A DNA stretch of 64,000 nucleotides from Trypanosoma brucei. Lineage: Eukaryota. A model generated the notes under the pieces. That model did not search any database, was not told the DNA's origin, and worked only from the letters and a program-made list of their open reading frames with translations. The DNA is taken from assembly GCA_000002445.1 (NCBI GenBank), contig CP000070.1:480001-544000 (forward strand), written 5' to 3'. Position 1 is the stretch's first letter. Each line of letters opens with the position of its first letter. Shown in pieces: positions 2,414-32,454 of the stretch. The position numbers and the translations under genes are program-made.

Positions 2414-4495
2414 CTACTCATGACCTCGTTTCCGTGTGAATGCTGGTGCATCTCGATATTTTCTCTCTTCATGATACGCTATTATAAGCTCTTTCTGTAT
2501 CTTTTTATCAAATGTTATTTGATACTGGTCAATACCATCCCAAAATACTTGTGTTTCCTCAGTTTGTTGCTCAGCATCAGCGGTGTTGTTGTTCACACAT
2601 CGTTGCCGCGTCTTAATCACACCACCATAAATAGCATTAACATATATCATCTCCCATGCCATGTTACGAGAAAAGGTATCCCAATCGGAAAAATACCTTG
2701 CAATGTTTGTCATAAATTCCTGTAACTCTGAAACACTTGCTTCTTTCCTGTAATTATCTGTTATTTGAATAAGCACAATAGTCTTTGAGGCAACTCCCAG
2801 TTGTGGAAAACCATCCCTCATATCCGCAACCCTTCTAGAGCAATCTTCCACAAAGAAAAAGCCATCCACAAAAAGCTTACTCTCCTCCAATGACCTGTAG
2901 AGCACTTTGTATTTACAGTTTCCAATTGCATTCTGTCCAGTTTTTGGCAAGAACTTTTGTTCAAAAATTTGAAACTGTTGTGGGGTCATATCTTTCAGGA
3001 TGCTACGCTTGTCTTCCGTCTCTCCGAGTCTTCGGAGGTAGTTCAAATGTTTTGTGACCACACAAAAGACTCTAGGAAAGAGAAGTGAAACCAAAGCCCT
3101 TGTTTTAAGCGAGTAGGCTCCGACCTTACCGTATTCCATCATGAATTCATGGGATGACATACTTTCCGCAACATCTGCAAACAGCGTACAGAGTATCATA
3201 TTCCCAATGGCAACTGATAGAGGTCTACAGTGGTATGATTCGAGGTTGCCATATCTGCTCCTCTCCCGTACAATCTTTATTAACGATTCTGTGAAATGAT
3301 TACCTTTCCATTCAAAATATTTTCCCATCATCATATCATAGCCATCTCGTCTATTACAACTGAGACTGCTTAGATACCCTATTACTGCCGCCTCACGACA
3401 GCCAGCTCCATTACTGAAAACATAACGAGGCAGCGGCCCCACAAAGTCAACACGTCTCTCCACCAACCTCCACTCATCCTCTAGCTCTTCCTTAACCTTC
3501 AAACGAGCATTTTCATCGAGAGTCGTATAGTTGGGAAATAGGGACAGTTTCTTCCAAGCCACAAACGCCTTAATGTCACGTACGTCATCGCAGTTTAAAA
3601 TTATCCTTGTTTGTTCCAGGTTCTTCATCCAGTACTTGTAGCTAACTCCATCTGGGGGTGCGAGGACAGTCACACCCCAAACATTTCTTGGGATCTCATA
3701 AGGCAGAGTTTCCTTACGACTATTAATATCAAAAATAATATGCCCTCTTTTTTTTAGACGCATTTCCTTAATAACATTAGTGACGTCTTCTCTCTTGTAC
3801 AATACAACCCTCCCTTCCTCATTCCCCTTCTTGTTGTATATAAGGTAAGCTTTGGAACCCGTGAAAAACACAACGACATCAAGCATTCCTTCATGGAAGT
3901 GAAGTAGGGAATGAAGTAAAAATGATCCAACTCCACATGATTTTCCAATACCAGATATACCAATGACAATGTGTGTTGGTGGTGTGCTCTCTGTCTTTTC
4001 CACCCACCATGCATTTAATTTTCGTTGTATTATATACCACACACGCATCATTTCACGACGGATGTAGACATTATTGTCCAATATCCCAATTCTCTGATAT
4101 AAACTAATGAGAGAACATTGAAATCTATCTGAGGGCCAACCCATCTTTGATGTAAGGACAAAGATCTCCAGGCCAGTGGGTCTCTCCTCAAGTTCCGCAT
4201 CAACTTCACAATGTTCAGGAGTTATATCAACTTCTTCTTCCGTCCATATGTGTTGTGGTCTTCCAAAGAATACCTTCATACCGAGTGGCTCTTGATTATA
4301 ACCTGACATCACATAACTCCACTTCGCATAATACAGAGACTCATATAACTCCTCTTCACGAGATTTCCTTTTTCCAGTTACCGATGGATTCTGCATCTGT
4401 CGTCCACCTCGTTCCTGCACTTCACCTTGTGCACGATTAAACCGTTCGTTAAACACATTCTGAGTATTTCCCATATTGCCGTTGTTTTGAATCAT
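2414..4495 (-). CDS. Multicopy P-loop NTPase-like protein, copy 1 (693 aa, cassette type A). Candidate RHS (retrotransposon hot spot) family member.
   Basis: Intact 693-aa ORF with ATG at 4493-4495 (cat on the + strand). Walker A motif IVIGISGIGKSCG. The ORF is conserved in frame in six tandem copies. The RHS name is an inference from the trypanosomatid multicopy tandem context, not a detected domain hit. Confidence 0.8.
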   Translation of the reverse strand: MIQNNGNMGNTQNVFNERFNRAQGEVQERGGRQMQNPSVTGKRKSREEELYESLYYAKWSYVMSGYNQEPLGMKVFFGRPQHIWTEEEVDITPEHCEVDAELEERPTGLEIFVLTSKMGWPSDRFQCSLISLYQRIGILDNNVYIRREMMRVWYIIQRKLNAWWVEKTESTPPTHIVIGISGIGKSCGVGSFLLHSLLHFHEGMLDVVVFFTGSKAYLIYNKKGNEEGRVVLYKREDVTNVIKEMRLKKRGHIIFDINSRKETLPYEIPRNVWGVTVLAPPDGVSYKYWMKNLEQTRIILNCDDVRDIKAFVAWKKLSLFPNYTTLDENARLKVKEELEDEWRLVERRVDFVGPLPRYVFSNGAGCREAAVIGYLSSLSCNRRDGYDMMMGKYFEWKGNHFTESLIKIVRERSRYGNLESYHCRPLSVAIGNMILCTLFADVAESMSSHEFMMEYGKVGAYSLKTRALVSLLFPRVFCVVTKHLNYLRRLGETEDKRSILKDMTPQQFQIFEQKFLPKTGQNAIGNCKYKVLYRSLEESKLFVDGFFFVEDCSRRVADMRDGFPQLGVASKTIVLIQITDNYRKEASVSELQEFMTNIARYFSDWDTFSRNMAWEMIYVNAIYGGVIKTRQRCVNNNTADAEQQTEETQVFWDGIDQYQITFDKKIQKELIIAYHEERKYRDAPAFTRKRGHE

Positions 4496-4552
4496 TCCTA
4501 TCTCAAAATAATAACTTTAAATAGGTAATATTGTGTTACTTTCTGAACATAT

Positions 4553-4568
4553 GTGTGTGTGTGTGTGT
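4553..4568. repeat. (GT)8 tract ((AC)n on the coding strand) about 55 nt upstream of the copy-1 ATG.
   Basis: The sequence reads acatatgtgtgtgtgtgtgtgtt. Confidence 0.9.
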
Positions 4569-7027
4569 TAAATCAAATAGTAAAATGAAGGGAATGATGT
4601 GTACACACTATCAAGCAACACATATATACAGTTCATGAATATCATAAACTAACAGAACAAATTATAACCTCTCCTTACAGTTAAACCCCTTAACAACCCC
4701 TTGCATATATTGAATAGTGATGTTCAATCAATTAAATATTCTGTATGAAAGCATGAGTAATAAGATTTTTAGATATGAGAGATAACAAACACGAAATCCT
4801 AAGTGAAGAATACTACTATTTCATATAATATAATATGTATGCATATAGTATAATATGTCATACTTTTTGAAATAATAAACAATAGTATTAATAATGAGAT
4901 AAACAGAATTTACAATAATAGATTATACATTGCACACGTAATAATGAGGACAACGTATGTCACAAAGGTTCTTAATTATAACATCGAAAGAACATTAACT
5001 CAAAGCATCAGCAAACATGCACATACAAACTGTTATTCATTATAACATCTTGGCTCCATCTCACAGCATAGACGACAATGTTTGAGTGTAAACCGTAACA
5101 TACAAAACCTAACACAAATATCTTCTGTACTGTCAAATATTGGGATGGTATCTCATCTCATTATTAAACACTTTCAACATTATCTTGTTGTCTCCTTGTT
5201 TGGGAACTCTCATCTTTGACACTAAGGAATATGTGAAGATACTAAGATCATTTATTTTTTTATTTCCTAGTTGCATTTGCAATTGTTCACATATTCTTTC
5301 AGTACACGCAAAAAAATTGAAAGTTTAAGGAAAATTGAATTATGAGAATAAGGAAACAAAGGATAAATTTTCTGTGAACAATAAAATATTATATAATATC
5401 TCAAATCTTCTGCAGTGATTCACCACATGTGGAAAATATATGCAATAGTTACATAACACTGACAACACTGAATAAAGGAATATATTCAATATACTCAATA
5501 TAGTCAATATATTTAATGCAAATATTACATGGAATATAAGAAGTGTAAGGAATCAAAGGAATATAAAAAATAAAATGTAATGGAGAATGATGGAAACTTA
5601 AGATACATCTATGTGAGCATAGCGTTGTGTGAGTAGAAATCATGTGCATATTTTATCTTAATCTTTCCCTATATTGTACTCACTCACTCGTAAAACTTAA
5701 TCATGGAAATAAAGTTTAGGGAATAGTAAAGTTGTTCTTCCACTCGCGTCAAGACACAAATACCTGCTTTCTGTCATTGGAAATCATGTGTCTTTATTAA
5801 ATTGTAGTATCCAATAATGAAAAAGAAGTACTCTATTACTATATCACTCATCATTTCCTACATCCCTAAATATATCGCATATTGTAACTATACATATTCT
5901 TTTTCTTTTTCATATACCATACAACAATCATATATTATTTACTTCCTTTCTTTAAACTGATGTCGTAATGTTCCTTTTGGAAGATACAAATAAATAATTG
6001 TACAAATATTAACACAAGAGTAATGATAGAAGAAAAGAATTACCTTAAGGAAACTACATGGAACTTCCATTATATAAGATACTACACTTCATATAAGGGG
6101 GAAATACGTAACAGTGGTTGTATCTTTTATTTGTCCTCAGTGTATCGGCAATCCTTCAGTAGACGCTGCTTTGCAACTGATTTCTTTTATGGATTAAGTT
6201 AGTCAGCAGTGTTGAGACAGGTTCCCCCGCATGAGGAGTGAAGGGACAAAACAATATTCCTACCTTCTAACCTATTGAACAAGAATGTCTCAAACAATAT
6301 CATTTGTCCCTATTTATTTCTGCAGATGCAAATGCTATTGATGGGTGAGATACATCTAAACAGCAACGGATATAACTATACTCATACAGTGTTTCTTTGA
6401 TTTCTTCTCGTCACCACAGTTGTGTTGGGTTACAAATATATACACAGCACTCCACTTTGTGGCTATAAGTCTCTTTAATATTTGAATGAAATCCTGCCTA
6501 TCGCTACTGCAATATTTCACACTCTGTGAGGGACACTGATATTTGCTTCTTTCGTCCATTTCATATTTTGATAGTTATGTAAATATCTTATGTGCAATCC
6601 ATCTCCTTTCCAAAATAAATAAAAAGAAAGATAAAAGCATAAGCAATTATCGACATAAAAACTGGAATGAGTCTCTCGGTTACACGTCGCACGCTTCTAA
6701 CATATAGACACGCTGCATGTAACCTATTTTTGTTGTTTCATGCATGTGTCAGTATGATAAAATGAAAATAGTCTCATGTTTCTCCTTGTGCTTTTGTATT
6801 GCATAAACTACTGGACTCGTCATCTCTTCCATCTATTCATCACACAGGAGTTGTTCACTTGCTTTACATGTAGCATATAGTAAAAATACAAAATATCAAA
6901 TTATTAAATTAATACTTCACTATAAGCAATAAAGCTTACTTGATTTTGTTTATTTCATTTATATCTGAGTTGAATTACATATGTTAATGAAATTATTCCA
7001 CTACTCAAAGATACAAACACTTTATTG

Positions 7028-7062
<35 letters not shown>

Positions 7063-8001
7063 ATGGTTTTGAGACACACCACATATCAGTTCTTCAACAT
7101 TACATATGTGTAAATCCATATTTACAAAAGGTACAGCTTTTGAATATCTGCATAATTATTTGAAGTATTATTATCTAATGAAGTGAACAGTAGATGTCAC
7201 TGAAATGCAAATAGTAATAATCCTCTGAAAGGCATAAATACTGTTTCATACAATACTCTAAAGTAATGCAGCGCTGTGCCATGAATACTTCCACAGAATA
7301 TACAACAACTAATGTGCGATAGTTAGTCATAATGATGCCTTCCATGTGATGAACTCTGCAATACAAATCATACGTTGAACAGAAACTAAAACATTAAATA
7401 CTAAATATAAATGCATGGGGGAGTGATGTAAACTATAAGAGGGGTTATGCACGTCAAAAAAGTTTCATTAGAATACAATAATAGTTTTGAATTTTATTAA
7501 ACAACTTAAAGCTTAACCACATGTGTGGAAACAACAATCACTTCACTATAGCATTTGTAGATTAGTGATTGTTACTGAAATAAATGAAAAAAAACAAATG
7601 AAGTAAATAAGGCAAGCACTGCATCCCATATTCTGTATTCATCACTGTGTGCTGACGCGTTTGAGTAGCTTTGCCCATTGACAGAAAAAAAAATAATAAA
7701 TAAATGAAATCTCTTCTTGCATCTTGTACAAGTGTATTTCAACAAAACAAAGACGTAAAAGAAATTTTATGCTTAATATATTTACTCATTTATTTGAAGG
7801 AAAGGTACAATAGCCAAAAAACTATAAAGGTGCATGTGAGTTATACTTCATTGTCAGATAAAGTTAACTTCACAACCCTCCTGAAACACAAAAGGAAAAT
7901 TAAAAGAATTACAATGAAGAAACAGAAGGAATACAATATGTTTTTTCCAACCTCTAACATGTTATATGTAAAAGTGACGAAATGGTCTTCACAATAGGAT
8001 G

Positions 8002-10083
8002 CTACTCATGACCTCTTTTCCGTGTGAATGCTGGTGCATCTCGATATTTTCTCTCTTCATGATACGCTATTATAAGCTCTTTCTGTATCTTTTTATCAAA
8101 TGTTATTTGATACTGGTCAATACCATCCCAAAATACTTGTGTTTCCTCAGTTTGTTGCTCAGCATCAGCGGTGTTGTTGTTCACACATCGTTGCCGCGTC
8201 TTAATCACACCACCATAAATAGCATTAACATATATCATCTCCCATGCCATGTTACGAGAAAAGGTATCCCAATCGGAAAAATACCTTGCAATGTTTGTCA
8301 TAAATTCCTGTAACTCTGAAACACTTGCTTCTTTCCTGTAATTATCTGTTATTTGAATAAGCACAATAGTCTTTGAGGCAACTCCCAGTTGTGGAAAACC
8401 ATCCCGCATATCCGCAACCCTTCTAGAGCAATCTTCCACAAAGAAAAAGCCATCCACAAAAAGCTTACTCTCCTCCAATGACCTGTAGAGCACTTTGTAT
8501 TTACAGTTTCCAATTGCATTCTGTCCAGCTTCTGGCAAGAACTTTTGTTCAAAAATTTGAAACTGTTGTGGGGTCATATCTTTCAGGATGCTACGCTTGT
8601 CTTCCGTCTCTCCGAGTCTTCGGAGGTAGTTCAAATGTTTTGTGACCACACAAAAGACTCTAGGAAAGAGAAGTGAAACCAAAGCCCTTGTTTTAAGCGA
8701 GTAGGCTCCGACCTTACCGTATTCCATCATGAATTCATGGGATGACATACTTTCCGCAACATCTGCAAACAGCGTACAGAGTATCATATTCCCAATGGCA
8801 ACTGATAGAGGTCTACAGTGGTATGATTCGAGGTTGCCATATCTGCTCCCCTCCCGTACAATCTTTATTAACGATTCTGTGAAATCATTACCTTTCCATT
8901 CAAAATATTTTCCCATCATCATATCATAGCCATCTCGTCTATTACAACTGAGACTGCTTAGATACCCTATTACTGCCGCCTCACGACAGCCAGCTCCATT
9001 ACTGAAAACATAACGAGGCAGCGGCCCCACAAAGTCAACACGTCTCTCCACCAACCTCCACTCATCCTCTAGCTCTTCCTTAACCTTCAAACGAGCATTT
9101 TCATCGAGAGTCGTATAGTTGGGAAATACGGACAGTTTCTTCCAAGCCACAAACGCCTTAATGTCACGTACGTCATCGCAGTTTAAAATTATCCTTGTTT
9201 GTTCCAGGTTCTTCATCCAGTACTTGTAGCGAACTCCATCTGGGGGTGCGAGGACAGTCACACCCCAAACATTTCTTGGGATCTCATAAGGCAGAGTTTC
9301 CTTACGACTATTAATATCAAAAATAATATGCCCTCTTTTTTTTAGACGCATTTCCTTAATAACATTAGTGACGTCTTTTCTCTTGTACAATACAACCCTC
9401 CCTTCCTCATTCCCCTTCTTGTTGTATATAAGGTAAGCTTTGGAACCCGTGAAATACACAACGACATCAAGCATTCCTTCATGGAAGTGAAGTAGGGAAT
9501 GAAGTAAAAATGATCCAACTCCACATGATTTTCCAATACCAGATATACCAATGACAATGTGTGTTGGTGGTGTGCTCTCTGTCTTTTCCACCCACCATGC
9601 ATTTAATTTTCGTTGTATTATATACCACACACGCATCATTTCACGACGGATGTAGACATTATTATCCAATATCCCAATTCTCTGATATAAACTAATGAGA
9701 GAACATTGAAATCCGCATGATGGGTTACATATCTTTGATGTAAGGACAAAGATCTCCAGGCCAGTGGGTCTCTCCTCAAGTTCCGCATCAACTTCACAAT
9801 GTTCAGGAGTTATATCCACTTCTTCTTCCGTTCATATGTGTTGTGGTCTTCCAAAGAATACCTTCATACCGAGTGGCTCTTGATTATAACCTGACATCAC
9901 ATAACTCCACTTCGCATAATACAGAGACTCATATAACTCCTCTTCACGAGATTTGCTTTTTCCAGTTACCGATGGATTCTGCATCTGCCGTCCACCTTGT
10001 TCATGCACTTCACCTTGTGCACGATTAAACCGTTCGTTAAACACATTCTGAGTATTTCTCATATTGCCGTTGTTTTGAATCAT
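8002..10083 (-). pseudogene. Copy 2 of the P-loop protein gene, disrupted by a nonsense codon: TGG to TGA, coding-strand stop at 9832-9834.
   Basis: The N-terminal 83 codons (from ATG at 10083) end at ...RPQHI followed by a stop. Other copies read HIWTEE. Here the + strand has gttcatatg where the others have gtccatatg. The rest of the ORF (605 aa) continues in frame. There is also a private variant patch SKICNPSCGFQ. Confidence 0.8.
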
Positions 10084-10140
10084 TCCTATCTCAAAATAAT
10101 AACTTTAAATAGGTAATATTGCGTTACTTTCTGCACATAT

Positions 10141-10141
10141 G

Positions 10142-10176
<35 letters not shown>

Positions 10177-10178
10177 GT
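10141..10178. repeat. (GT)n tract of about 38 bp upstream of copy 2. The longest allele in the array.
   Basis: gtgtgtgtgtgtgtgtttgtgtgtgtgtgtgtgtgtgt. Confidence 0.9.
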
Positions 10179-12638: not shown

Positions 12639-12673
<35 letters not shown>

Positions 12674-13612
12674 ATGGTTTTGAGACACACCACATATCAG
12701 TTCTTCAACATTACATATGTGTAAATCCATATTTACAAAAGGTACAGCTTTCGAATATCTGCATAATTATTTGAAGTATTATTATCTAATGAAGTGAACA
12801 GTAGATGTCACTGAAATGCAAATAGTAATAATCCTCTGAAAGGCATAAATACTGTTTCATACAATACTCTAAAGTACTGCAGCGCTGTGCCATGAATACT
12901 TCCACAGAAGATACAACAACTAATGTGCGATAGTTAGTCATAATGATGCCTTCCATGTGATGAACTCTGCAATACAAATCATACGTTGAACAGAAACTAA
13001 AACATTAAATACTAAATATAAATACATGGGGGAGTGATGTAAACTATAAGAGGGTTTATGTACGTCAAGGAAGTTTCATTAGAATACAATAATAGTTTTG
13101 AATTTTATTAAACAACTTAAAGCTTAACCACATGTGTGGAAACAACAATCACTTCACTATAGCATTTGTAGATTAGTGATTGTTACTGAAATAAATGAAA
13201 AAAAACAAATGAAGTAAATACGGCAAGCACTGCATCCCATATTCTGTATTCATCACTGTGTGCTGACGCGTTTGAGTAGCTTTGCCCATTGACAGAAAAA
13301 AAAATAATAAATAAATGAAATCTCTTCTTGCATCTTGTACAAGTGTATTTCAACAAAACAAAGACGTAAAAGAAATTTTATGCTTAATATATTTACTCAT
13401 TTATTTGAAGGAAAGGTACAATAGCCAAAAAACTATAAAGGTGCATGTGAGTTATACTTCATTGTCAGATAAAGTTAACTTCACAACCCTCCTGAAACAC
13501 AAAAGGAAAATTAAAAGAATTACAATGAAGAAACAGAAGGAATACAATATGTTTTTTCCAACCTCTAACATGTTATATGTAAAAGTGACGAAATGGTCTT
13601 CACAATAGGATG

Positions 13613-15688
13613 CTACTCATGACCTCGTTTCCGTGTGAATGCTGGTGCATCTCGATATTTTCTCTCTTCATGATACGCTATTATAAGCTCTTTCTGTATC
13701 TTGTTATCAAATGTTATTTGATACTGGTCAATACCATCCCAAAATACTTGTGTTTCCTCAGTTTGTTGCTCAGCATCAGCGGTGTTGTTGTTCACACATC
13801 GTTGCCGCGTCTTAATCACACCACCATAAATAGCATTAACATATATCATCTCCCATGCCATGTTACGAGAAAAGGTATCCCAATCGGAAAAATACCTTGC
13901 AATGTTTGTCATAAATTCCTGTAACTCTGAAACACTTGCTTCTTTCCTGTAATTATCTGTTATTTGAATAAGCACAATAGTCTTTGAGGCAACTCCCAGT
14001 TGTGGAAAACCATCCCTCATATCCGCAACCCTTCTAGAGCAATCTTCCACAAAGAAAAAGCCATCCACAAAAAGCTTACTCTCCTCCAATGACCTGTAGA
14101 GCACCTTGTATTTACAGTTTCCAATTGCATTCTGTCCAGTTTTTGGTAAGAACTTTTGTTCAAAAATTTGAAACTGTTGTGGGGTCATATCTTTCAGGAT
14201 GCTACGCTTGTCTTCCGTCTCTCCGAGTCTTCGGAGGTAGTTCAAATGTTTTGTGACCACACAAAAGACTCTAGGAAAGAGAAGTGAAACCAAAGCCCTT
14301 GTTTCAAGCGAGTAGGCTCCGACCTTACCGTATACGCTTTCACTATGTTTCTCAACCATCAGTGTTGCAACAGTTGAAAACAGCGTACAGAGTATCATAT
14401 TCCCAATGGCAACTGATAGAGGTCTACAGTGGTATGATTCGAGGTCGTCATATCTGCCCCCCTCCCGTACAATCTTCACTAAACTGTGAACCACTTTTTC
14501 ACTTTTCCACGTAAAATATTTTTCCAGAATCGTTTCATACTCTTCTTTCTTCTCATTTTCTAGGCTTCTTAGGTAATCACTGATATCCTGCAGCCGGTTG
14601 GTGTAACTTTGCTTGCTGAAAACATAACGAGGCAGCGGCCCCACAACGTCAACACGTCTCTCCACTAACCTCCACTCATCCTCTAGCTCTTCCTTAACCT
14701 TCGCACGAGCATTTTCATCGAGAGTCGTATAGTTGGGAAATAGGGACAGTTTCTTCCAGGCCACAAACGCCTTAATGTCACGTACGTCATCGCAGTTTAA
14801 AATCACATTCCAACTGAAATAGTCCTTCTCCCAATGTTTATAATAGTATGTATCCGGAGTGTTGAGTGTAGTTATTCCCCACCCAAGATATTGGGTCTCA
14901 TAAGGCGGAGTCTCATCAGGTCCATCAGTATCAAAAATAATATGCCCTCTTTTTTTCAAACGCATTTCTTTAATAACATTAGTGACGTCTTTTCTCTTGT
15001 ACAATACAACCCTCCCTTCCTCATTCCCCTTCTTGTTGTATATAAGGTAGGCGTCCACATCCGTGAAATACACAACGACATCAAGCATTCCTTCATGGAA
15101 GTGAAGTAGGGAATGAAGTAAAAATGATCCAACTCCACATGATTTTCCAGTCCCTGGAATACCAATGACAATGTGTGTTGGTGGTGTGCTCTCTGTCTTT
15201 TGCACCCACCATGCATTTAATTTTCGTTGTATTATATACCACACACGCATCATTTCACGACGGATGTAGACATTATTGTCCATTATACCACTTTCATCAT
15301 TGATACCTAATTGAAACGTAGCTGATGGCCAACCCATCTTTGATGTAAGGACAAAGATCTCCAGGCCAGTGGGTCTCTCCTCAAGTTCCGCATCAACTTC
15401 ACAATGTTCAGGAGTTATATCCACTTCTTCTTCCGTCCATATGTGTTGTGGTCTTCCAAAGAATACCTTCATACCGAGTGGCTCTTGATTATAACCTGAC
15501 ATCACATAACTCCACTTCGCATAATACAGAGACTCATATAACTCCTCTTCACGAGATTTCCTTTTTCCAGTTACCGATGGATTCTGCATCTGTCGTCCAC
15601 CTCGTTCCTGCACTTCACCTTGTGCACGATTAAACCGTTCGTTAAACACATTCTGAGTATTTCCCATATTGCCGTTGTTTTGAATCAT
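13613..15688 (-). CDS. Multicopy P-loop NTPase-like protein, copy 3 (691 aa, cassette type B). Candidate RHS family.
   Basis: Intact ORF with ATG at 15686-15688. Walker A variant IVIGIPGTGKSCG. Three internal segments are replaced relative to copy 1. Confidence 0.8.
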   Translation of the reverse strand: MIQNNGNMGNTQNVFNERFNRAQGEVQERGGRQMQNPSVTGKRKSREEELYESLYYAKWSYVMSGYNQEPLGMKVFFGRPQHIWTEEEVDITPEHCEVDAELEERPTGLEIFVLTSKMGWPSATFQLGINDESGIMDNNVYIRREMMRVWYIIQRKLNAWWVQKTESTPPTHIVIGIPGTGKSCGVGSFLLHSLLHFHEGMLDVVVYFTDVDAYLIYNKKGNEEGRVVLYKRKDVTNVIKEMRLKKRGHIIFDTDGPDETPPYETQYLGWGITTLNTPDTYYYKHWEKDYFSWNVILNCDDVRDIKAFVAWKKLSLFPNYTTLDENARAKVKEELEDEWRLVERRVDVVGPLPRYVFSKQSYTNRLQDISDYLRSLENEKKEEYETILEKYFTWKSEKVVHSLVKIVREGGRYDDLESYHCRPLSVAIGNMILCTLFSTVATLMVEKHSESVYGKVGAYSLETRALVSLLFPRVFCVVTKHLNYLRRLGETEDKRSILKDMTPQQFQIFEQKFLPKTGQNAIGNCKYKVLYRSLEESKLFVDGFFFVEDCSRRVADMRDGFPQLGVASKTIVLIQITDNYRKEASVSELQEFMTNIARYFSDWDTFSRNMAWEMIYVNAIYGGVIKTRQRCVNNNTADAEQQTEETQVFWDGIDQYQITFDNKIQKELIIAYHEERKYRDAPAFTRKRGHE

Positions 15689-19214: not shown

Positions 19215-21287
19215 CTACTCATGACCTCGTTTCCGTGTGAATGCTGGTGCATCTCGATATTTTCTCTCTTCATGATACGCTATTATAAGCTCTTTCTGTA
19301 TCTTGTTATCAAATGTTATTTGATACTGGTCAATACCATCCCAAAATACTTGTGTTTCCTCAGTTTGTTGCTCAGCATCAGCGGTGTTGTTGTTCACACA
19401 TCGTTGCCGCGTCTTAATCACACCACCATAAATAGCATTAACATATATCATCTCCCATGCCATGTTACGAGAAAAGGTATCCCAATCGGAAAAATACCTT
19501 GCAATGTTTGTCATAAATTCCTGTAACTCTGAAACACTTGCTTCTTTCCTGTAATTATCTGTTATTTGAATAAGCACAATAGTCTTTGAGGCAACTCCCA
19601 GTTGTCGAAAACCATCCCGCATATCCGCAACCCTTCTAGAGCAATCTTCCACAAAGAAAAAGCCATCCACAAAAAGCTTACTCTCTTCAAATGACCTGTA
19701 GAGCACCTTGTATTTACAGTTTCCAATTGCATTCTGTCCAGTTTTTGGTAAGAACTTTTGTTCAAAAATTTGAAACTGTTGTGGGGTCATATCTTTCAGG
19801 ATGCTACGCTTGTCTTCCGTCTCTCCGAGTCTTCGGAGGTAGTTCAAATGTTTTGTGACCACACAAAAGACTCTAGGAAAGAGAAGTGAAACCAAAGCCC
19901 TTGTTTCAAGCGAGTAGGCTCCGACCTTACCGTATACGCTTTCACTATGTTTCTCAACCATCAGTGTTGCAACAGTTGAAAACAGCGTACAGAGTATCAT
20001 ATTCCCAATGGCAACTGATAGAGGTCTACAGTGGTATGATTCGAGGTTGCCATATCCGCTCCCCTCCCGTACAATCTTCACTAAACTGTGAACCACTTTT
20101 TCACTTTTCCACGTAAAATATTTTTCCAGAATCGTTTCATACTCTTCTTTCTTCTCATTTTCTAGGCTTCTTAGGTAATCACTGATATCCTGCAGCCGGT
20201 TGGTGTAACTTTGCTTGCTGAAAACATAACGAGGCAGCGGCCCCACAACGTCAACACGTCTCTCCACTAACCTCCACTCATCCTCTAGCTCTTCCTTAAC
20301 CTTCGCACGAGCATTTTCATCGAGAGTCGTATAGTTGGGAAATAGGGACAGTTTCTTCCAGGCCACAAACGCCTTAATGTCACGTACGTCATCGCAGTTT
20401 AAAATCACATTCCAACTTAAATAGTCCTTCTCCCAATGTTCATAATAGTGTGTATCCGGAGTGTTGAGTGTAGTTATTCCCCACCCAAGATATTGGGTCT
20501 CATAAGGCGGAGTCTCATCAGGTCCATCAGTATCAAAAATAATATGCCCTCTTTTTTTAAAACGCATTTCTTCAATAACATTAGTGACGTCTTTTCTCTT
20601 GTACAATACAACCCTCCCTTCCTCATTCCCCTTCTTGTTGTATATAAGGTAAGCTTTGGCATCCGTGAAATACACAACGACATCAAGCATTCCTTCATGG
20701 AAGTGAAGTAGGGAATGAAGTAAAAATGATCCAACTCCACATGATTTTCCAGTCCCTGGAATACCAATGACAATGTGTGTTGGTGGTCTCTCTGTCTTTT
20801 GCACCCACCATGCATTTAATTTTTGTTGTATTATATACCACACACGCATCATTTCACGACGGATGTAGACATTATTGTCCATTATACCACTTTCATCATT
20901 GATACCTAATTGAAACGTAGCTGATGGCCAACCCATCTTTGATGTAAGGACAAAGATCTCCAGGCCAGTGGGTCTCTCCTCAAGTTCCGCATCAACTTCA
21001 CAATGTTCAGGAGTTATATCAACTTCTTCTTCCGTCCATATGTGTTGTGGTCTTCCAAAGAATACCTTCATACCGAGTGGCTCTTGATTATAACCTGACA
21101 TCACATAACTCCACTTCGCATAATACAGAGACTCATATAACTCCTCTTCACGAGATTTCCTTTTTCCAGTTACCGATGGATTCTGCATCTGTCGTCCACC
21201 TCGTTCCTGCACTTCACCTTGTGCACGATTAAACCGTTCGTTAAACACATTCTGAGTATTTCTCATATTGCCGTTGTTTTGAATCAT
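19215..21287 (-). CDS. Multicopy P-loop NTPase-like protein, copy 4 (690 aa, type B).
   Basis: Intact ORF with ATG at 21285-21287. Walker A is GIPGTGKS. Confidence 0.8.
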   Translation of the reverse strand: MIQNNGNMRNTQNVFNERFNRAQGEVQERGGRQMQNPSVTGKRKSREEELYESLYYAKWSYVMSGYNQEPLGMKVFFGRPQHIWTEEEVDITPEHCEVDAELEERPTGLEIFVLTSKMGWPSATFQLGINDESGIMDNNVYIRREMMRVWYIIQQKLNAWWVQKTERPPTHIVIGIPGTGKSCGVGSFLLHSLLHFHEGMLDVVVYFTDAKAYLIYNKKGNEEGRVVLYKRKDVTNVIEEMRFKKRGHIIFDTDGPDETPPYETQYLGWGITTLNTPDTHYYEHWEKDYLSWNVILNCDDVRDIKAFVAWKKLSLFPNYTTLDENARAKVKEELEDEWRLVERRVDVVGPLPRYVFSKQSYTNRLQDISDYLRSLENEKKEEYETILEKYFTWKSEKVVHSLVKIVREGSGYGNLESYHCRPLSVAIGNMILCTLFSTVATLMVEKHSESVYGKVGAYSLETRALVSLLFPRVFCVVTKHLNYLRRLGETEDKRSILKDMTPQQFQIFEQKFLPKTGQNAIGNCKYKVLYRSFEESKLFVDGFFFVEDCSRRVADMRDGFRQLGVASKTIVLIQITDNYRKEASVSELQEFMTNIARYFSDWDTFSRNMAWEMIYVNAIYGGVIKTRQRCVNNNTADAEQQTEETQVFWDGIDQYQITFDNKIQKELIIAYHEERKYRDAPAFTRKRGHE

Positions 21288-21344
21288 TCCTATCTCAAAA
21301 TAATAACTTTAAATAGGTAATATTGTGTTACTTTCTGAACATAT

Positions 21345-21368
21345 GTGTGTGTGTGTTTGTGTGTGTGT
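21345..21368. repeat. (GT)n tract of about 24 bp upstream of copy 4.
   Basis: Same position in the unit. Confidence 0.9.
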
Positions 21369-23821: not shown

Positions 23822-23858
<37 letters not shown>

Positions 23859-24808: not shown

Positions 24809-26872
24809 TCATTTCCGTGTGAATGCTGGTGCATCTCGATATTTTCTCTCTTCATGATACGCTATTATAAGCTCTTTCTGTATCTTGTTATCAAATGTTA
24901 TTTGATACTGGTCAATACCATCCCAAAATACTTGTGTTTCCTCAGTTTGTTGCTCAGCATCAGCGGTGTTGTTGTTCACACATCGTTGCCGCGTCTTAAT
25001 CACACCACCATAAATAGCATTAACATATATCATCTCCCATGCCATGTTACGAGAAAAGGTATCCCAATCGGAAAAATACCTTGCAATGTTTGTCATAAAT
25101 TCCTGTAACTCTGAAACACTTGCTTCTTTCCTGTAATTATCTGTTATTTGAATAAGCACAATAGTCTTTGAGGCAACTCCCAGTTGTGGAAAACCATCCC
25201 TCATATCCGCAACCCTTCTAGAGCAATCTTCCACAAAGAAAAAGCCATCCACAAAAAGCTTACTCTCCTCCAATGACCTGTAGAGCACCTTGTATTTACA
25301 GTTTCCAATTGCATTCTGTCCAGTTTTTGGTAAGAACTTTTGTTCAAAAATTTGAAACTGTTGTGGGGTCATATCTTTCAGGATGCTACGCTTGTCTTCC
25401 GTCTCTCCGAGTCTTCGGAGGTAGTTCAAATGTTTTGTGACCACACAAAAGACTCTAGGAAAGAGAAGTGAAACCAAAGCCCTTGTTTCAAGCGAGTAGG
25501 CTCCGACCTTACCGTATACGCTTTCACTATGTTTCTCAACCATCAGTGTTGCAACAGTTGAAAACAGCGTACAGAGTATCATATTCCCAATGGGAACTGA
25601 TAGAGGTCTACAGTGGTATGATTCGAGGTCGTCATATCTGCCCCCCTCCCGTACAATCTTCACTAAACTGTGAACCACTTTTTCACTTTTCCACGTAAAA
25701 TATTTTTCCAGAATCGTTTCATACTCTTCTTTCTTCTCATTTTCTAGGCTTCTTAGGTAATCACTGATATCCTGCAGCCGGTTGGTGTAACTTTGCTTGC
25801 TGAAAACATAACGAGGCAGCGGCCCCACAACGTCAACACGTCTCTCCACCAACCTCCACTCATCCTCTAGCTCTTCCTTAACCTTCGCACGAGCATTTTC
25901 ATCGAGAGTCGTATAGTTGGGAAATAGGGACAGTTTCTTCCAGGCCACAAACGCCTTAATGTCACGTACGTCATCGCAGTTTAAAATCACATTCCAACTT
26001 AAATAGTCCTTCTCCCAATGTTCATAATAGTGTGTATCCGGAGTGTTGAGTGTAGTTATTCCCCACCCAAGATATTGGGTCTCATAAGGCGGAGTCTCAT
26101 CAGGTCCATCAGTATCAAAAATAATATGCCCTCTTTTTTTCAAACGCATTTCTTTAATAACATTAGTGACGTCTTTTCTCTTGTACAATACAACCCTCCC
26201 TTCCTCATTCCCCTTCTTGTTGTATATAAGGTAAGCTTTGGCATCCGTGAAATACACAACGACATCAAGCATTCCTTCATGGAAGTGAAGTAGGGAATGA
26301 AGTAAAAATGATCCAACTCCACATGATTTTCCAGTCCCTGGAATACCAATGATAATGTGTGTTGGTGGTGTGCTCTCTGTCTTTTGCACCCACCATTCTT
26401 TTAATTTTTGTTGTATTATATACCACACACGCATCATTTCACGACGGATGTAGACATTATTGTCCATTATACCACTTTCATCATTGATACCTAATTGAAA
26501 CGTAGCTGATGGCCAACCCATCTTTGATGTAAGGACAAAGATCTCCAGGCCAGTGGGTCTCTCCTCAAGTTCCGCATCAACTTCACAATGTTCAGGAGTT
26601 ATATCCACTTCTTCTTCCGTCCATATGTGTTGTGGTCTTCCAAAGAATACCTTCATACCGAGTGGCTCTTGATTATAACCTGACATCACATAACTCCACT
26701 TCGCATAATACAGAGACTCATATAACTCCTCTTCACGAGATTTCCTTTTTCCAGTTACCGATGGATTCTGCATCTGTCGTCCACCTCGTTCCTGCACTTC
26801 ACCTTGTGCACGATTAAACCGTTCGTTAAACACATTCTGAGTATTTCTCATATTGCCGTTGTTTTGAATCAT
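24809..26872 (-). CDS. Multicopy P-loop NTPase-like protein, copy 5 (687 aa, type B). The C-terminus is 4 aa shorter because CGA became TGA.
   Basis: Intact ORF with ATG at 26870-26872. It ends ...FTRK rather than ...FTRKRGHE. Confidence 0.8.
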   Translation of the reverse strand: MIQNNGNMRNTQNVFNERFNRAQGEVQERGGRQMQNPSVTGKRKSREEELYESLYYAKWSYVMSGYNQEPLGMKVFFGRPQHIWTEEEVDITPEHCEVDAELEERPTGLEIFVLTSKMGWPSATFQLGINDESGIMDNNVYIRREMMRVWYIIQQKLKEWWVQKTESTPPTHIIIGIPGTGKSCGVGSFLLHSLLHFHEGMLDVVVYFTDAKAYLIYNKKGNEEGRVVLYKRKDVTNVIKEMRLKKRGHIIFDTDGPDETPPYETQYLGWGITTLNTPDTHYYEHWEKDYLSWNVILNCDDVRDIKAFVAWKKLSLFPNYTTLDENARAKVKEELEDEWRLVERRVDVVGPLPRYVFSKQSYTNRLQDISDYLRSLENEKKEEYETILEKYFTWKSEKVVHSLVKIVREGGRYDDLESYHCRPLSVPIGNMILCTLFSTVATLMVEKHSESVYGKVGAYSLETRALVSLLFPRVFCVVTKHLNYLRRLGETEDKRSILKDMTPQQFQIFEQKFLPKTGQNAIGNCKYKVLYRSLEESKLFVDGFFFVEDCSRRVADMRDGFPQLGVASKTIVLIQITDNYRKEASVSELQEFMTNIARYFSDWDTFSRNMAWEMIYVNAIYGGVIKTRQRCVNNNTADAEQQTEETQVFWDGIDQYQITFDNKIQKELIIAYHEERKYRDAPAFTRK

Positions 26873-26930
26873 TCCTATCTCAAAATAATAACTTTAAATA
26901 GGTAATATTGTGTTACTTTCTGAACATATA

Positions 26931-26945
26931 TGTGTTTGTGTGTGT
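26931..26945. repeat. Short degenerate (GT)n tract of about 15 bp upstream of copy 5.
   Basis: Sequence tgtgtttgtgtgtgtt. The shortest allele. Confidence 0.85.
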
Positions 26946-29404: not shown

Positions 29405-29437
<33 letters not shown>

Positions 29438-30387: not shown

Positions 30388-32454
30388 TCATTTCCGTGTG
30401 AATGCTGGTGCATCTCGATATTTTCTCTCTTCATGATACGCTATTATAAGCTCTTTCTGTATCTTTTTATCAAATGTTATTTGATACTGGTCAATACCAT
30501 CCCAAAATACTTGTGTTTCCTCAGTTTGTTGCTCAGCATCAGCGGTGTTGTTGTTCACACATCGTTGCCGCGTCTTAATCACACCACCATAAATAGCATT
30601 AACATATATCATCTCCCATGCCATGTTACGAGAAAAGGTATCCCAATCGGAAAAATACCTTGCAATGTTTGTCATAAATTCCTGTAACTCTGAAACACTT
30701 GCTTCTTTCCTGTAATTATCTGTTATTTGAATAAGCACAATAGTCTTTGAGGCAACTCCCAGTTGTGGAAAACCATCCCTCATATCCGCAACCCTTCTAG
30801 AGCAATCTTCCACAAAGAAAAAGCCACCAACAAGGGGCTTACTCTCTTCAAATGACCTGTAGAGCACCTTGTATTCACAGTTTCCAATTGCATTCTGTCC
30901 AGCTTCTGGTAAGAACTTTTGTTCAACAAGTTGAAACTGTTGTGGGGTCATATCTTTCAGGATGCTACGCTTGTCTTCCGTCTCTCCGAGTCTTCGGAGG
31001 TAGTTCAAATGTTTTGTGACCACACAAAAGACTCTAGGAAAGAGAAGTGAAACCAAAGCCCTTGTTTTAAGCGAGTAGGCTCCGACCTTACCGTATCCCA
31101 TCATGAATTCAAGGGATGACATACTTTTCGCAACAGTTGCAAACAGCGTACAGAGTATCATATTCCCAATGGCAACTGATAGAGGTCTACAGTGGTATGA
31201 TTCGAGGTTGCCATATCTGCTCCTCTCCCGTACAATCTTTATTAACGGTTGTGTGAAATCATTACCTTTCCATTCAAAATATTTTCCCATCATCATATCA
31301 TAGCCATCTCGTCTATTACAACTGAGACGGCTTAGATACCTTATTACCTCCAACTCACGACAGTTACCTCGATTACCGAAAACATAACGAGGCAGCGGCC
31401 CCACTACGTCAACACGTCTCTCCACCAACCTCCACTCATCCTCTAGCTCTTCCTTAACCTTCGCACGAGCATTTTCATCGAGAGTCGTATAGTTGGGAAA
31501 TAGGGACAGTTTCTTCCAAGCCACAAACGCCTTAATGTCACGTACGTCATCGCAGTTTAAAATTATCCTTGTTTGTTCCAGGTTCTTCATCCAGTACTTG
31601 TAGCGAACTCCATCTGGGGGTGCGAGGACAGTCACACCCCAAACATTTCTTGGGATCTCATAAGGCAGAGTTTCCTTAGGACTATTAATATCAAAAATAA
31701 TATGCCCTCTTTTTTTCAAACGCATTTCTTCAATAACATTAGTGACGTCTTTTCTCTTGTACAATACAACCCTCCCTTCCTCATTCCCCTTCTTGTTGTA
31801 TATAAGGTAAGCTTTGGCATCCGTGAAATACACAACGACATCAAGCATTCCTTCATGGAAGTGAAGTAGGGAATGAAGTAAAAATGATCCAACTCCACAT
31901 GATTTTCCAATACCAGATATACCAATGACAATGTGTGTTGGTGGTCTCTCTGTCTTTTGCACCCACCATGCATTTAATTTTTGTTGTATTATATACCACA
32001 CACGCATCATTTCACGACGGATGTAGACATTATTGTCCAATATCCCAATTCTCTGATATAAACTAATTAGACCACCTTGAAATCTATCTGAGGGCCAACC
32101 CATCATTGATGTAAGGACAAAGATCTCCAGGCCAGTGGGTCTCTCCTCAAGTTCCGCATCAACTTCACAATGTTCAGGAGTTATATCCACTTCTTCTTCC
32201 GTCCATATGTGTTGTGGTCTTCCAAAGAATACCTTCATACCGAGTGGCTCTTGATTATAACCTGACATCACATAACTCCACTTCGCATAATACAGAGACT
32301 CATATAACTCCTCTTCACGAGATTTCCTTTTTCCAGTTACCGATGGATTCTGCATCTGTCGTCCACCTCGTTCCTGCACTTCACCTTGTGCACGATTAAA
32401 CCGTTCGTTAAACACATTCTGAGTATTTCCCATATTGCCGTTGTTTTGAATCAT
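30388..32454 (-). CDS. Multicopy P-loop NTPase-like protein, copy 6 (688 aa). A chimera of type A and type B cassettes.
   Basis: Intact ORF with ATG at 32452-32454. GISGIGKS (A-like) is followed by YFTDAKAY (B-like), then an A-like FDINSPKETLPYEIP block, then B-like ARAKVKEE...VDVVGPLP. Confidence 0.8.
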   Translation of the reverse strand: MIQNNGNMGNTQNVFNERFNRAQGEVQERGGRQMQNPSVTGKRKSREEELYESLYYAKWSYVMSGYNQEPLGMKVFFGRPQHIWTEEEVDITPEHCEVDAELEERPTGLEIFVLTSMMGWPSDRFQGGLISLYQRIGILDNNVYIRREMMRVWYIIQQKLNAWWVQKTERPPTHIVIGISGIGKSCGVGSFLLHSLLHFHEGMLDVVVYFTDAKAYLIYNKKGNEEGRVVLYKRKDVTNVIEEMRLKKRGHIIFDINSPKETLPYEIPRNVWGVTVLAPPDGVRYKYWMKNLEQTRIILNCDDVRDIKAFVAWKKLSLFPNYTTLDENARAKVKEELEDEWRLVERRVDVVGPLPRYVFGNRGNCRELEVIRYLSRLSCNRRDGYDMMMGKYFEWKGNDFTQPLIKIVRERSRYGNLESYHCRPLSVAIGNMILCTLFATVAKSMSSLEFMMGYGKVGAYSLKTRALVSLLFPRVFCVVTKHLNYLRRLGETEDKRSILKDMTPQQFQLVEQKFLPEAGQNAIGNCEYKVLYRSFEESKPLVGGFFFVEDCSRRVADMRDGFPQLGVASKTIVLIQITDNYRKEASVSELQEFMTNIARYFSDWDTFSRNMAWEMIYVNAIYGGVIKTRQRCVNNNTADAEQQTEETQVFWDGIDQYQITFDKKIQKELIIAYHEERKYRDAPAFTRK

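What the first reader, a model, noticed from the sequence alone, without database searches (positions are those of the whole stretch)
2414..32454. Cassette-like mosaicism confined to the coding region of an otherwise homogenised tandem gene array
The six ~690-aa P-loop genes are not simple copies of one another. Against a background of near-identical sequence, three discrete internal segments exist in two alternative versions with sharp boundaries.
- Patch 1, roughly residues 117-135: SDRFQCSLISLYQRIGIL versus SATFQLGINDESGIM.
- Patch 2, roughly residues 255-300: FDINSRKETLPYEIPRNVWGVTVLAPPDGVSYKYWMKNLEQTRI versus FDTDGPDETPPYETQYLGWGITTLNTPDTYYYKHWEKDYFSWNV.
- Patch 3, about 100 residues: SNGAGCREAAVIGYLSSLSCNRRDGYDMMMGKYFEWKGN... 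versus SKQSYTNRLQDISDYLRSLENEKKEEYETILEKYFTWKSE...
Copies 1 and 2 carry type A throughout. Copies 3, 4 and 5 carry type B. Copy 6 alternates (A, B, A, B, then an A-like third variant), so it is a recombinant. The Walker A sequence co-varies: GISGIGKS in type A and GIPGTGKS in type B.
The ~3.5 kb non-coding spacers are about 99% identical across all copies. Concerted evolution is therefore homogenising everything except these patches. Either segmental gene conversion is shuffling them or selection is retaining them as alternative modules. Patchwork gene conversion of this kind recalls mosaic VSG formation in African trypanosomes. It has not, to my knowledge, been characterised for this family.
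Basis: partly seen in the sequence, partly recalled or inferred. Interest (0 to 1): 0.78.

Follow-up and report, generated by a model that had tools for sequence, protein, structure and literature searches.

The report
Mosaic RHS7 gene array, Trypanosoma brucei
The window holds the known tandem array of RHS7 (retrotransposon hot spot protein 7) genes on Trypanosoma brucei chromosome 7, whose copies really are patchworks of two old sequence versions on a near-identical background, but this mosaicism was already published for this very array.

Summary
Six tandem 5.6-kb units (five intact genes, one with a premature stop) are about 99% identical in the spacers. In the coding region they differ in five sharply bounded blocks where 46-61% of bases differ. 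Clustering of differences is far beyond chance (variance/mean 11.5 against 0.89). Inside the blocks synonymous divergence is about 0.94, against 0.036 outside. The blocks are therefore old sequence versions, not recent mutation. They are in frame and are not frameshift artefacts.

Copy 6 carries type A blocks on a type B backbone (p = 3e-9). The window is T. brucei brucei TREU927 chromosome 7, the RHS7 array. The same block versions occur in T. b. gambiense and T. equiperdum, partly reassorted.

Its claim that this is uncharacterised is not. Jackson 2007 and Jackson et al. 2010 analysed this array (Tb55, Tb927.7.2030). They reported discordance between coding region and UTRs, partial gene-conversion events, a significant PHI test, and LRT and GARD breakpoints.

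Selection for alternative modules is not shown: dN/dS in the blocks is about 0.8. No outside donor was found. The array is reported as transcriptionally silent in bloodstream forms. Interest is modest.

The parts
2414..4495 (-). RHS7 copy 1 (693 aa, = XP_845822), type A in all blocks
   Evidence: ORF. Pfam RHS_N + RHSP. Exact match in the protein collection. Block typing.
8002..10083 (-). RHS7 copy 2, a pseudogene: in-frame TGA at codon 84 (9832-9834). Type A, with variant 'KICNPSCGFQ' at the start of patch 1.
13613..15688 (-). RHS7 copy 3 (691 aa, = XP_845823), type B in all blocks
19215..21287 (-). RHS7 copy 4 (690 aa, = XP_845824), type B
24809..26872 (-). RHS7 copy 5 (687 aa, = XP_845825), type B; its stop codon is 4 codons earlier than in copies 1-4
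30388..32454 (-). RHS7 copy 6 (688 aa, = XP_845826): type A or A-like blocks on a type B backbone
   Evidence: Fisher p = 2.8e-9.
4081..4146 (-). Block P1 in copy 1 (aa ~117-139). Homologous positions: c2 9669-9734, c3 15283-15339, c4 20882-20938, c5 26467-26523, c6 32040-32105.
   Evidence: Coordinates. 51% of columns differ between A and B. It lies in the C-terminal part of the Pfam RHS_N match, in a low-confidence part of the model.
3948..3956 (-). Walker A mini-block in copy 1 (GISGIGKS against GIPGTGKS; 5 of 9 nt differ). Others: c2 9536-9544, c3 15150-15158, c4 20752-20760, c5 26334-26342, c6 31910-31918.
   Evidence: The chance of 5 differences in 9 nt at background divergence is about 4e-7 per site.
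3602..3726 (-). Block P2 in copy 1 (aa 257-298). It runs from just after the Walker B Asp through the next strand and helix up to the following strand. Others: c2 9190-9314, c3 14804-14928, c4 20406-20530, c5 25988-26112, c6 31564-31688.
   Evidence: Both versions keep the family-invariant P and W and the near-invariant L.
3278..3413 (-). Block P3a in copy 1 (aa 361-409), in the helical region after the ATPase core. Others: c2 8866-9001, c3 14477-14615, c4 20079-20217, c5 25661-25799, c6 31240-31375.
3135..3178 (-). Block P3b in copy 1 (aa 442-458). Others: c2 8723-8766, c3 14334-14377, c4 19936-19979, c5 25518-25561, c6 31097-31140.
   Evidence: It assorts apart from P3a in P0004, P0038 and P0053.
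4496..8001 (-). One of the ~3.5-kb non-coding spacers (3' UTR plus intergenic plus 5' UTR). There is an equivalent stretch between every pair of copies, plus partial spacers at 1-2413 and 32455-33738.
   Evidence: 98.9-99.3% identity in all pairs. The spacer examined (window 9900-13700) has no ORF over 104 aa. No spacer site follows the A/B split, and at least 9 recombination events are needed in 2.4 kb.

Best explanation
This is the RHS7 tandem array of Trypanosoma brucei brucei TREU927 chromosome 7. Six of its roughly ten copies lie in the window.

The repeat unit is kept nearly uniform by unequal crossing-over and short-tract gene conversion between copies. Five short segments of the coding region, all within the N-terminal and P-loop NTPase part of the protein, exist in two (locally three) very old versions. 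These versions are too different to pair with each other.

Recombination starts and ends in the identical sequence between the segments. Each divergent segment is therefore either left alone or moved whole. This produces sharp boundaries and chimeric copies, such as copy 6 here and many copies in T. b. gambiense and T. equiperdum.

Shown: the block structure, its age relative to the background, recombination, and sharing of the versions across subspecies.

Inferred: that the two versions descend from two old RHS7 lineages whose remaining sequence was homogenised, and that sequence divergence itself (rejection of mismatched heteroduplex) protects the blocks. Whether selection also helps to keep both versions is open.
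For: Identity of the array:
- Pfam RHS_N + RHSP.
- Five proteins match XP_845822-XP_845826 exactly.
- The neighbours are core genes: capping enzyme, GMP synthase, DnaJ, Dcc1.

Blocks:
- Variance/mean 11.5 against a null of 0.89.
- 174 of 272 variable CDS columns share one pattern.

Age:
- Inside the blocks dS is 0.94, dN 0.76 and amino-acid identity 30%. In the background dS is 0.036 and dN 0.013.
- A against B identity within blocks (0.20-0.36) is no higher than either against other RHS subfamilies (0.00-0.43). The core is 96% identical between A and B, against 36-64% to other subfamilies.

Homology:
- The blocks are homologous in frame, not frameshifted: BLOSUM62 scores of 79 and 70 in frame against at most 18 out of frame.
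- Family-invariant or near-invariant residues are kept in both versions.
- The predicted secondary structure of P2 is the same in both models.

Recombination:
- PHI p = 0.0005. The Hudson-Kaplan minimum (Rm) is at least 13 in the CDS and at least 9 in the spacer.
- Copy 6 has A blocks on a B backbone, p = 2.8e-9.
- Of 28 complete RHS7 proteins, 10 are all-A, 8 are all-B and 10 are recombinants of 9 kinds. All four gametes occur in 13 of 15 block pairs.

Stability:
- Block versions are discrete and stable. Type B blocks in copies 3-5 have dS = 0 and recur in T. b. gambiense.

Literature:
- Published analyses of the same array reach the same conclusion about gene conversion.
Against: - Other segments that vary just as much across the RHS family (aa 156-170, 231-245, 321-335, 411-440) are identical among RHS7 copies. 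If A and B were old lineages that diverged throughout, those segments must have been homogenised while the five blocks were not. Divergence alone does not explain that.
- No RHS7 relative outside T. brucei was found that could date the split.
- Spacer divergence within the array equals the divergence between subspecies, so ongoing homogenisation is not directly shown.
- Some T. b. gambiense recombinants could be assembly chimeras of a collapsed repeat. Jackson et al. 2010 warn about copy-number assembly.
- The role of mismatch-repair rejection rests on general knowledge of homologous recombination and was not tested here.
Confidence: 0.55

Rival explanations
1. Selection keeps the blocks as alternative functional modules. 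The two versions of each block would give the NTPase different partners or properties. Balancing or diversifying selection would preserve both versions in every array, while recombination generates combinations.
For: - Both versions of all five blocks persist in T. b. brucei and T. b. gambiense arrays, and most in the two T. equiperdum copies.
- Both stay in frame and keep family-invariant or near-invariant residues.
- Blocks are discrete while other variable segments were homogenised.
- A against the A-like variant of copy 6: 22 non-synonymous against 2 synonymous changes in the blocks.
- P3b dN/dS is 1.6.
Against: - Overall block dN/dS is 0.81, with dS near saturation, so the ratio carries little information.
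- The 22:2 excess is not significant by my hand estimate (binomial p about 0.1, not a tool result).
- Recent substitutions are close to neutral, at 0.66-0.86.
- One of six copies here, and several in T. b. gambiense, are pseudogenes.
- The array is reported silent in bloodstream forms (PMC4721609), and RHS7 as expressed only in tsetse salivary glands (PMC6393297).
- RHS7 function is unknown (PMC12774637).
- The structure models are too poor to show surface exposure.
Confidence: 0.22
2. One set of blocks was imported recently. Ectopic gene conversion from a divergent RHS gene or pseudogene elsewhere in the genome would have pasted short foreign tracts into RHS7 copies. These tracts then spread within the array.
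For: - The boundaries are sharp and the jump in divergence is very large.
- The Walker A change is 5 differences in 9 nt, which looks templated.
- Other T. brucei RHS subfamilies show cassette-like sharing at the same positions. P0009 shares patch 1 with P0012 but patch 2 with P0011.
- Inter-RHS recombination is reported in T. cruzi.
Against: - No donor was found. The best non-RHS7 match to the type A variable region among 1.84 billion representatives is 43% identical.
- Neither version is closer to any annotated RHS subfamily than to the other version.
- Jackson 2007 found ectopic conversion very rare among T. brucei tandem arrays.
- Five separate tracts would have to come from an unknown source.
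- Limit: untranslated RHS pseudogenes and subtelomeres could not be searched with these tools.
Confidence: 0.17
3. The blocks are hot spots of local hypermutation or error-prone repair, so both synonymous and non-synonymous sites diverged quickly and recently.
For: Both dS and dN are high inside the blocks.
Against: - Only two or three discrete versions exist per block, with no intermediates.
- Versions are identical or nearly so among copies 3-5 and across subspecies.
Confidence: 0.03
4. The pattern is an artefact: misassembly of a repeat, or misalignment of frameshifted pseudogenes.
For: - Copy 2 has a premature stop.
- Tandem repeats are hard to assemble.
Against: - Five of six copies are full open reading frames.
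- The blocks align in frame only.
- The same block versions appear in independently sequenced T. b. gambiense and T. equiperdum genomes.
- Two earlier publications describe them.
Confidence: 0.02

Closest known systems
Sequence mosaics in T. brucei tandem gene arrays (Jackson 2007, BMC Evol Biol 7:54; Jackson et al. 2010, PLoS Negl Trop Dis 4:e658), array Tb55 = RHS7, Tb927.7.2030
   Same: It is the same locus. Those papers report CDS copies 2-4 diverging while the UTRs do not, five partial gene-conversion events, PHI p < 0.001, 12 LRT breakpoints, at least 3 GARD breakpoints, and isoforms shared and unique between T. b. brucei and T. b. gambiense.
   Different: The passages I read do not describe the block anatomy found here: five blocks, synonymous divergence about 26 times the background, location in the NTPase part of the protein, and copy 6 as A blocks on a B backbone. 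The figures and full supplementary tables were not inspected.
Mosaic RHS genes of Trypanosoma cruzi (Bernardo et al. 2020, Genes 11:1085)
   Same: It is the same protein family. Recombination was detected with RDP4, and the mosaics contain up to three foreign fragments. Unequal crossing-over and segmental gene conversion were invoked.
   Different: In T. cruzi the exchanges are between dispersed, often subtelomeric members of different RHS groups. Here they occur within one internal tandem array, against a homogenised background.
Mosaic VSG formation in African trypanosomes
   Same: Segmental gene conversion assembles chimeric genes from related copies (established knowledge).
   Different: VSG mosaics are made somatically during infection, from a silent archive into an expression site, under antibody selection on a surface coat. 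RHS7 belongs to a nuclear P-loop protein family. Its mosaics are inherited array variants shared between subspecies, and the array is silent in bloodstream forms.
Clusters of plant NLR resistance genes and MHC genes with patchwork gene conversion (recalled from general knowledge, not tested)
   Same: Tandem paralogues share a conserved frame. Short hypervariable segments are shuffled by sequence exchange, and old allelic lineages are retained. RHS has a P-loop domain with weak fold resemblance to AAA+/STAND ATPases, including NLRs.
   Different: In NLR and MHC genes the variable residues lie in ligand-binding surfaces and show dN/dS above 1. Here the blocks lie in and next to the NTPase core, dN/dS is about 0.8, and no ligand or function is known.

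Membership tests
RHS (retrotransposon hot spot) protein family | Pfam RHS_N (PF20445) followed by the RHSP P-loop domain (PF07999) | tested here: met
   RHS_N E = 3e-34 and RHSP E = 1e-53 for copy 1. RHS_N E = 2e-33 and RHSP E = 6e-59 for copy 3. All are above the curated cut-offs.
RHS (retrotransposon hot spot) protein family | ATP/GTP-binding (Walker A) motif in the conserved central region | tested here: met
   GISGIGKS (type A) and GIPGTGKS (type B) both fit GxxxxGK[ST]. A Walker-B-like hhhhD ('HIIFD') follows.
RHS (retrotransposon hot spot) protein family | RIME/ingi retroelement inserted at the family's hot spot (seen in many pseudogene members) | tested here: not met
   Unit lengths are uniform at 5582-5605 bp, and no insertion interrupts any of the six copies. 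An insertion is not required for membership. The position of the hot spot relative to the blocks was not determined.
RHS7 subfamily, chromosome 7 array of T. brucei TREU927 (Tb927.7.19xx-20xx) | Sequence identity to the annotated array members, and the genomic neighbourhood | tested here: met
   Copies 1, 3, 4, 5 and 6 are identical to XP_845822-XP_845826 on the 2,205,233-bp contig. The name RHS7 for Tb927.7.2010 and Tb927.7.2030 comes from PMC7952579 and PMC1855330.
Tandem array under concerted evolution with partial gene conversion | Head-to-tail repeats with near-identical non-coding parts | tested here: met
   Period of about 5.6 kb; spacers 98.9-99.3% identical.
Tandem array under concerted evolution with partial gene conversion | Statistical evidence of recombination between copies | tested here: met
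   PHI p = 0.0005. The Hudson-Kaplan minimum (Rm) is at least 13 in the CDS and at least 9 in the spacer. Published PHI, LRT and GARD results agree.
Tandem array under concerted evolution with partial gene conversion | Copies within a genome more alike than copies between related genomes | tested here: not met
   A T. b. gambiense spacer is 98.9-99.2% identical to the TREU927 spacers, the same as within TREU927. Block versions are shared across subspecies. Homogenisation therefore predates, or is no faster than, the subspecies split.
VSG-type mosaic gene formation | Somatic assembly into an expression site of a surface antigen during infection | not testable with these tools
   The mosaics are present in reference genomes of three subspecies. 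The array is reported silent in bloodstream forms. No expression data can be analysed here.
Balanced, trans-specific polymorphism (MHC-like) | Allelic lineages older than the taxa that carry them | tested here: inconclusive
   The versions are shared by T. b. brucei, T. b. gambiense and T. equiperdum, and dS is 0.94. These taxa differ by only about 1%, however, and no RHS7 was found in a more distant species.
Balanced, trans-specific polymorphism (MHC-like) | Excess of non-synonymous change in the variable segments | tested here: not met
   Block dN/dS is 0.81 overall. Only P3b exceeds 1 (1.6, from 15 codons).
AAA+/STAND P-loop NTPases | Fold match of the NTPase core and lid to solved members | tested here: inconclusive
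   The best Foldseek hits against the PDB are ATAD2, ORC4, NLRP2, ZAR1, NSF and CED-4, but only at E = 1.6e-3 to 1e-2 with TM 0.13-0.17, from a model with mean pLDDT of 54. There is no sequence hit to any solved structure.

The most novel reading that the evidence does not exclude
The five blocks are specificity modules of an AAA+/STAND-like NTPase. Balancing selection keeps them in alternative versions, and recombination within the array combines them. The parasite would then carry a small combinatorial repertoire of RHS7 isoforms for use in the tsetse salivary-gland stages, by analogy with NLR or MHC clusters.
Probability: 0.12. Interest if true: 0.55.

Novelty: already known. Interest (0 to 1): 0.27.

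Why it matters
This is a clear example of how concerted evolution and old sequence variation can coexist within one gene. Short, very divergent segments survive as discrete cassettes in an otherwise uniform tandem array and are reshuffled by recombination.

For trypanosome biology the value is limited. The mosaic nature of this array is already published. RHS7 has no known function. The array is reported as silent outside the tsetse salivary-gland stages.

The detailed block map, showing which parts of the NTPase domain vary and that the variation is old rather than recent, could guide a later functional comparison of A and B isoforms.

Tried and rejected
- Frameshift or misalignment artefact: rejected. 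Only the in-frame comparison scores.
- Donor search among annotated RHS proteins and among 1.84 billion protein representatives: nothing closer than 43% identity.
- The second profile-based homologue search returned the same 27 clusters plus one fragment. It did not deepen the alignment.
- Structure prediction for type B and type A: mean pLDDT of 54-55. Only the P-loop core and the C-terminal domain are usable, so surface exposure of the blocks could not be judged. No coordinates are available for computing solvent accessibility.
- Foldseek against the PDB: only weak AAA+/STAND hits.
- Spacers: the one examined (window 9900-13700) has no ORF of note, and the window has no Rfam family. TRF with a maximum period of 500 does not report the 5.6-kb repeat.
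- My interim impression of 'nearly free reassortment' of blocks was overstated. The two parental combinations make up 18 of 28 complete copies, and r2 is 0.17-0.66.
- Bringaud et al. 2002, the founding RHS paper, could not be retrieved.

Full report
**What is there**

The window carries six long ORFs on the minus strand with a period of 5579-5611 bp. A self-comparison shows a tandem array that is cut by the left edge of the window and ends near position 33738.

Each protein matches Pfam RHS_N and the RHSP P-loop domain, well above the curated thresholds. Copies 1, 3, 4, 5 and 6 are identical to XP_845822-XP_845826 of Trypanosoma brucei brucei TREU927, on a contig of 2,205,233 bp.

Copy 2 has TGA in place of TGG at codon 84 (window 9832-9834) and is absent from the protein set, so it is a pseudogene. 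The neighbours further along the same strand are ordinary core genes: an NF-X1/R3H protein, DnaJ, the capping enzyme-methyltransferase, GMP synthase, a BAG protein and Dcc1.

This is the RHS7 array of chromosome 7. Jackson 2007 lists it as array Tb55, with ten copies at 465,663-512,454.

**Check of the observation**

A MAFFT alignment of the six units gives spacer identities of 98.9-99.3% for every pair. Coding regions are 90-91% identical between copies 1, 2, 6 and copies 3, 4, 5, and 96.7-99.2% within each group. The spacer examined (window 9900-13700) has no ORF longer than 104 aa, and the window has no Rfam match.

Copy 1 and copy 3 differ at 191 sites in the coding region but at only 23 sites in 2.4 kb of spacer. 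Differences are strongly clustered. Variance/mean in 50-nt bins is 11.5, against a permutation mean of 0.89 and a maximum of 1.77.

Columns fixed between types fall into five blocks:
- P1, aa 124-139
- A 9-nt block in the Walker A motif, aa 180-183
- P2, aa 257-298
- P3a, aa 361-409
- P3b, aa 442-458

In these blocks 46-61% of columns differ, and they are flanked by 30-100 nt of identity. Window coordinates for all copies are; there the P1 range starts about 7 codons earlier, to include the copy-2 and copy-6 variants at aa 117-123.

- Its patch 3 is two blocks.
- Copy 2 is a pseudogene with a third variant at the start of patch 1.
- The Walker A co-variation holds only within this window.
- Copy 6 is best described as type A blocks (171 of 188 sites) on a type B backbone (10 of 13 sites), Fisher p = 2.8e-9.

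**The blocks are old, homologous and in frame**

Nei-Gojobori estimates for copy 1 against copy 3 give the following:
- Blocks: amino-acid identity 0.30, dS 0.94, dN 0.76, dN/dS 0.81.
- Rest of the gene: dS 0.036, dN 0.013, dN/dS 0.35.

Synonymous divergence is thus about 26 times higher inside the blocks. Positive selection on amino acids alone would not produce this.

The versions are discrete. Among the type B copies 3-5 the blocks have dS = 0. The same versions recur in T. b. gambiense and T. equiperdum proteins.

P2 and P3a are clearly homologous in the normal frame. Nucleotide z-scores are 5.2 and 5.7, and BLOSUM62 scores are 79 and 70 in frame against at most 18 out of frame. P1 is marginal, and P3b is too short and divergent to tell.

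Both versions keep residues that are invariant (P, W, W) or nearly invariant (L) in an alignment of 28 RHS proteins.

**Recombination**

Among 184 informative coding sites there are 1241 incompatible pairs. The Hudson-Kaplan minimum is 13 events, and my implementation of the PHI test gives p = 0.0005. The first 2.4 kb of spacer needs at least 9 events. None of its 19 informative sites shows the A/B pattern that accounts for 174 of 272 variable coding columns.

- Among the 28 complete ones, 10 are all-A, 8 are all-B and 10 are recombinants of 9 kinds.
- All four gametes occur in 13 of 15 module pairs, and r2 is 0.17-0.66.
- Three T. b. gambiense copies are recombinant inside P2.
- Within TREU927 itself no copy mixes A and B blocks. 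The evidence there comes from copy 6 and from smaller variants.
- Some T. b. gambiense recombinants might be assembly chimeras, but the two T. equiperdum copies are also recombinant.

**Where the blocks come from**

Inside the blocks, A and B are no more alike (0.20-0.36 identity) than either is to other RHS subfamilies (0.00-0.43). In the rest of residues 51-520 they are 96% identical to each other, against 36-64% to other subfamilies.

An exhaustive phmmer search used the type A variable region (residues 250-470) against 1.84 billion representatives. It found only 79 proteins, and the best non-RHS7 match was 43% identical. No donor is visible among annotated proteins. RHS pseudogenes and subtelomeric DNA could not be searched.

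Block columns are less conserved across 21 non-RHS7 RHS proteins than other columns (0.34 against 0.49, p = 9e-9). Other T. brucei RHS subfamilies show their own cassette-like sharing at P1 and P2. However, several segments that vary just as much family-wide are identical among RHS7 copies. Divergence alone therefore does not explain which segments stayed dimorphic.

**Timing of homogenisation**

A T. b. gambiense unit fetched from FN554970 has a spacer 98.9-99.2% identical to the TREU927 spacers. This equals the identity among the TREU927 spacers themselves. Homogenisation of the background is therefore not demonstrably faster than the subspecies split. The array is better described as a uniform background with old islands than as an array under rapid ongoing correction.

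**Structure**

AlphaFold2 models of type B and type A, built from 28 sequences, have mean pLDDT of 54-55. Only the P-loop core and the C-terminal domain are reasonably confident.

In both models P2 covers the loop after the Walker B strand, the next strand and a helix, ending just before the following strand. P3a and P3b lie in a low-confidence helical region. P1 lies in a low-confidence stretch before the P-loop domain. The C-terminal domain, which defines RHS subfamilies, is almost invariant among copies.

Foldseek gives only weak matches to AAA+/STAND ATPases such as ATAD2, ORC4, NLRP2, ZAR1 and CED-4 (E about 1e-3). Surface exposure could not be assessed.

**What is already known**

[quoted passage not shown] The paper lists five partial gene-conversion events of 84-769 bp. 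Copies 2-4 correspond to copies 5, 4 and 3 here if counting follows the direction of transcription.
- Jackson et al. 2010 (PMC2854126, Table 2) report for array 55: 10 T. b. brucei and 20 T. b. gambiense copies, five shared isoforms, PHI p < 0.001, 12 LRT breakpoints and at least 3 GARD breakpoints.
- Mosaic RHS genes are also described in T. cruzi (PMC7563717).
- Reynolds et al. 2016 (PMC4721609) describe this cluster as silent. It lies downstream of an H3.V/base J termination site at cSSR 7.3 and is de-repressed when H3.V is lost.
- Florini et al. (PMC6393297) state that RHS7 is expressed only in tsetse salivary glands.
- A 2026 paper calls the function of RHS7 unknown.

**Verdict**

The claims of novelty and of selection are not supported. 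Recent substitutions are close to neutral (dN/dS 0.66-0.86 within types). One copy here and several in T. b. gambiense are pseudogenes.

My best account is that two old RHS7 lineages had their alignable sequence homogenised. Five highly diverged segments were left behind and now behave as cassettes. Import from an unknown donor and selective retention remain live alternatives.

The block map and the synonymous-divergence contrast add detail to a published phenomenon, so I rate interest as modest.

Noticed in passing
window 9832-9834 (copy 2, codon 84): An in-frame TGA replaces the TGG that copy 1 has at this codon, so copy 2 is a pseudogene. The ORF finder therefore reports only a 605-aa GTG-started ORF at 8002-9819.
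   Followed up: yes
window 1-2413: The array runs off the left edge of the window. The literature gives ten copies in TREU927, so about four more copies lie beyond it. All three type B copies of the strain appear to be inside the window.
   Followed up: partly
window ~33700-34250 and the whole array: Published work places an H3.V/base J Pol II termination site upstream of this RHS cluster (cSSR 7.3). It calls the cluster silent in bloodstream forms. The array therefore lies at the repressed end of a polycistronic unit.
   Followed up: partly
window 44300-50180: About 6 kb of AT-rich sequence (GC 0.28-0.34) with strong positive AT skew (0.12-0.22) lies between the capping-enzyme gene and the next ORF. 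It has no credible ORF and no Rfam match.
   Followed up: partly
window 24809 and 30388 (ends of copies 5 and 6); alignment column 2079: There is a stop-codon polymorphism. Copies 5 and 6 end at ...FTRK, four codons earlier than copies 1-4 (...FTRKRGHE). The short form also occurs in several T. b. gambiense and T. equiperdum copies.
   Followed up: partly
proteins P0007-P0013 (other T. brucei RHS subfamilies): Other RHS subfamilies show cassette-like sharing at the same positions. P0009 shares patch 1 with P0012 (0.71 identity) but patch 2 with P0011 (0.83). P0007 and P0008 are 88% identical in the core but 7% in patch 1. Modular exchange may be a family-wide trait.
   Followed up: partly
L001 4268-12073 (T. 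b. gambiense FN554970): The T. b. gambiense spacer is as similar to the TREU927 spacers (about 99.0%) as the TREU927 spacers are to each other. The terminal unit's downstream flank leaves the repeat and leads into GDA1/CD39 and LRR genes.
   Followed up: yes
proteins P0038, P0046, P0048, P0054 (T. b. gambiense): Three copies are recombinant inside patch 2: B-type 'FDTDGPDETPPYET' is joined to A-type 'PRNVWGVTVLAPPDG'. One annotated pseudogene has a deletion across the same patch.
   Followed up: no
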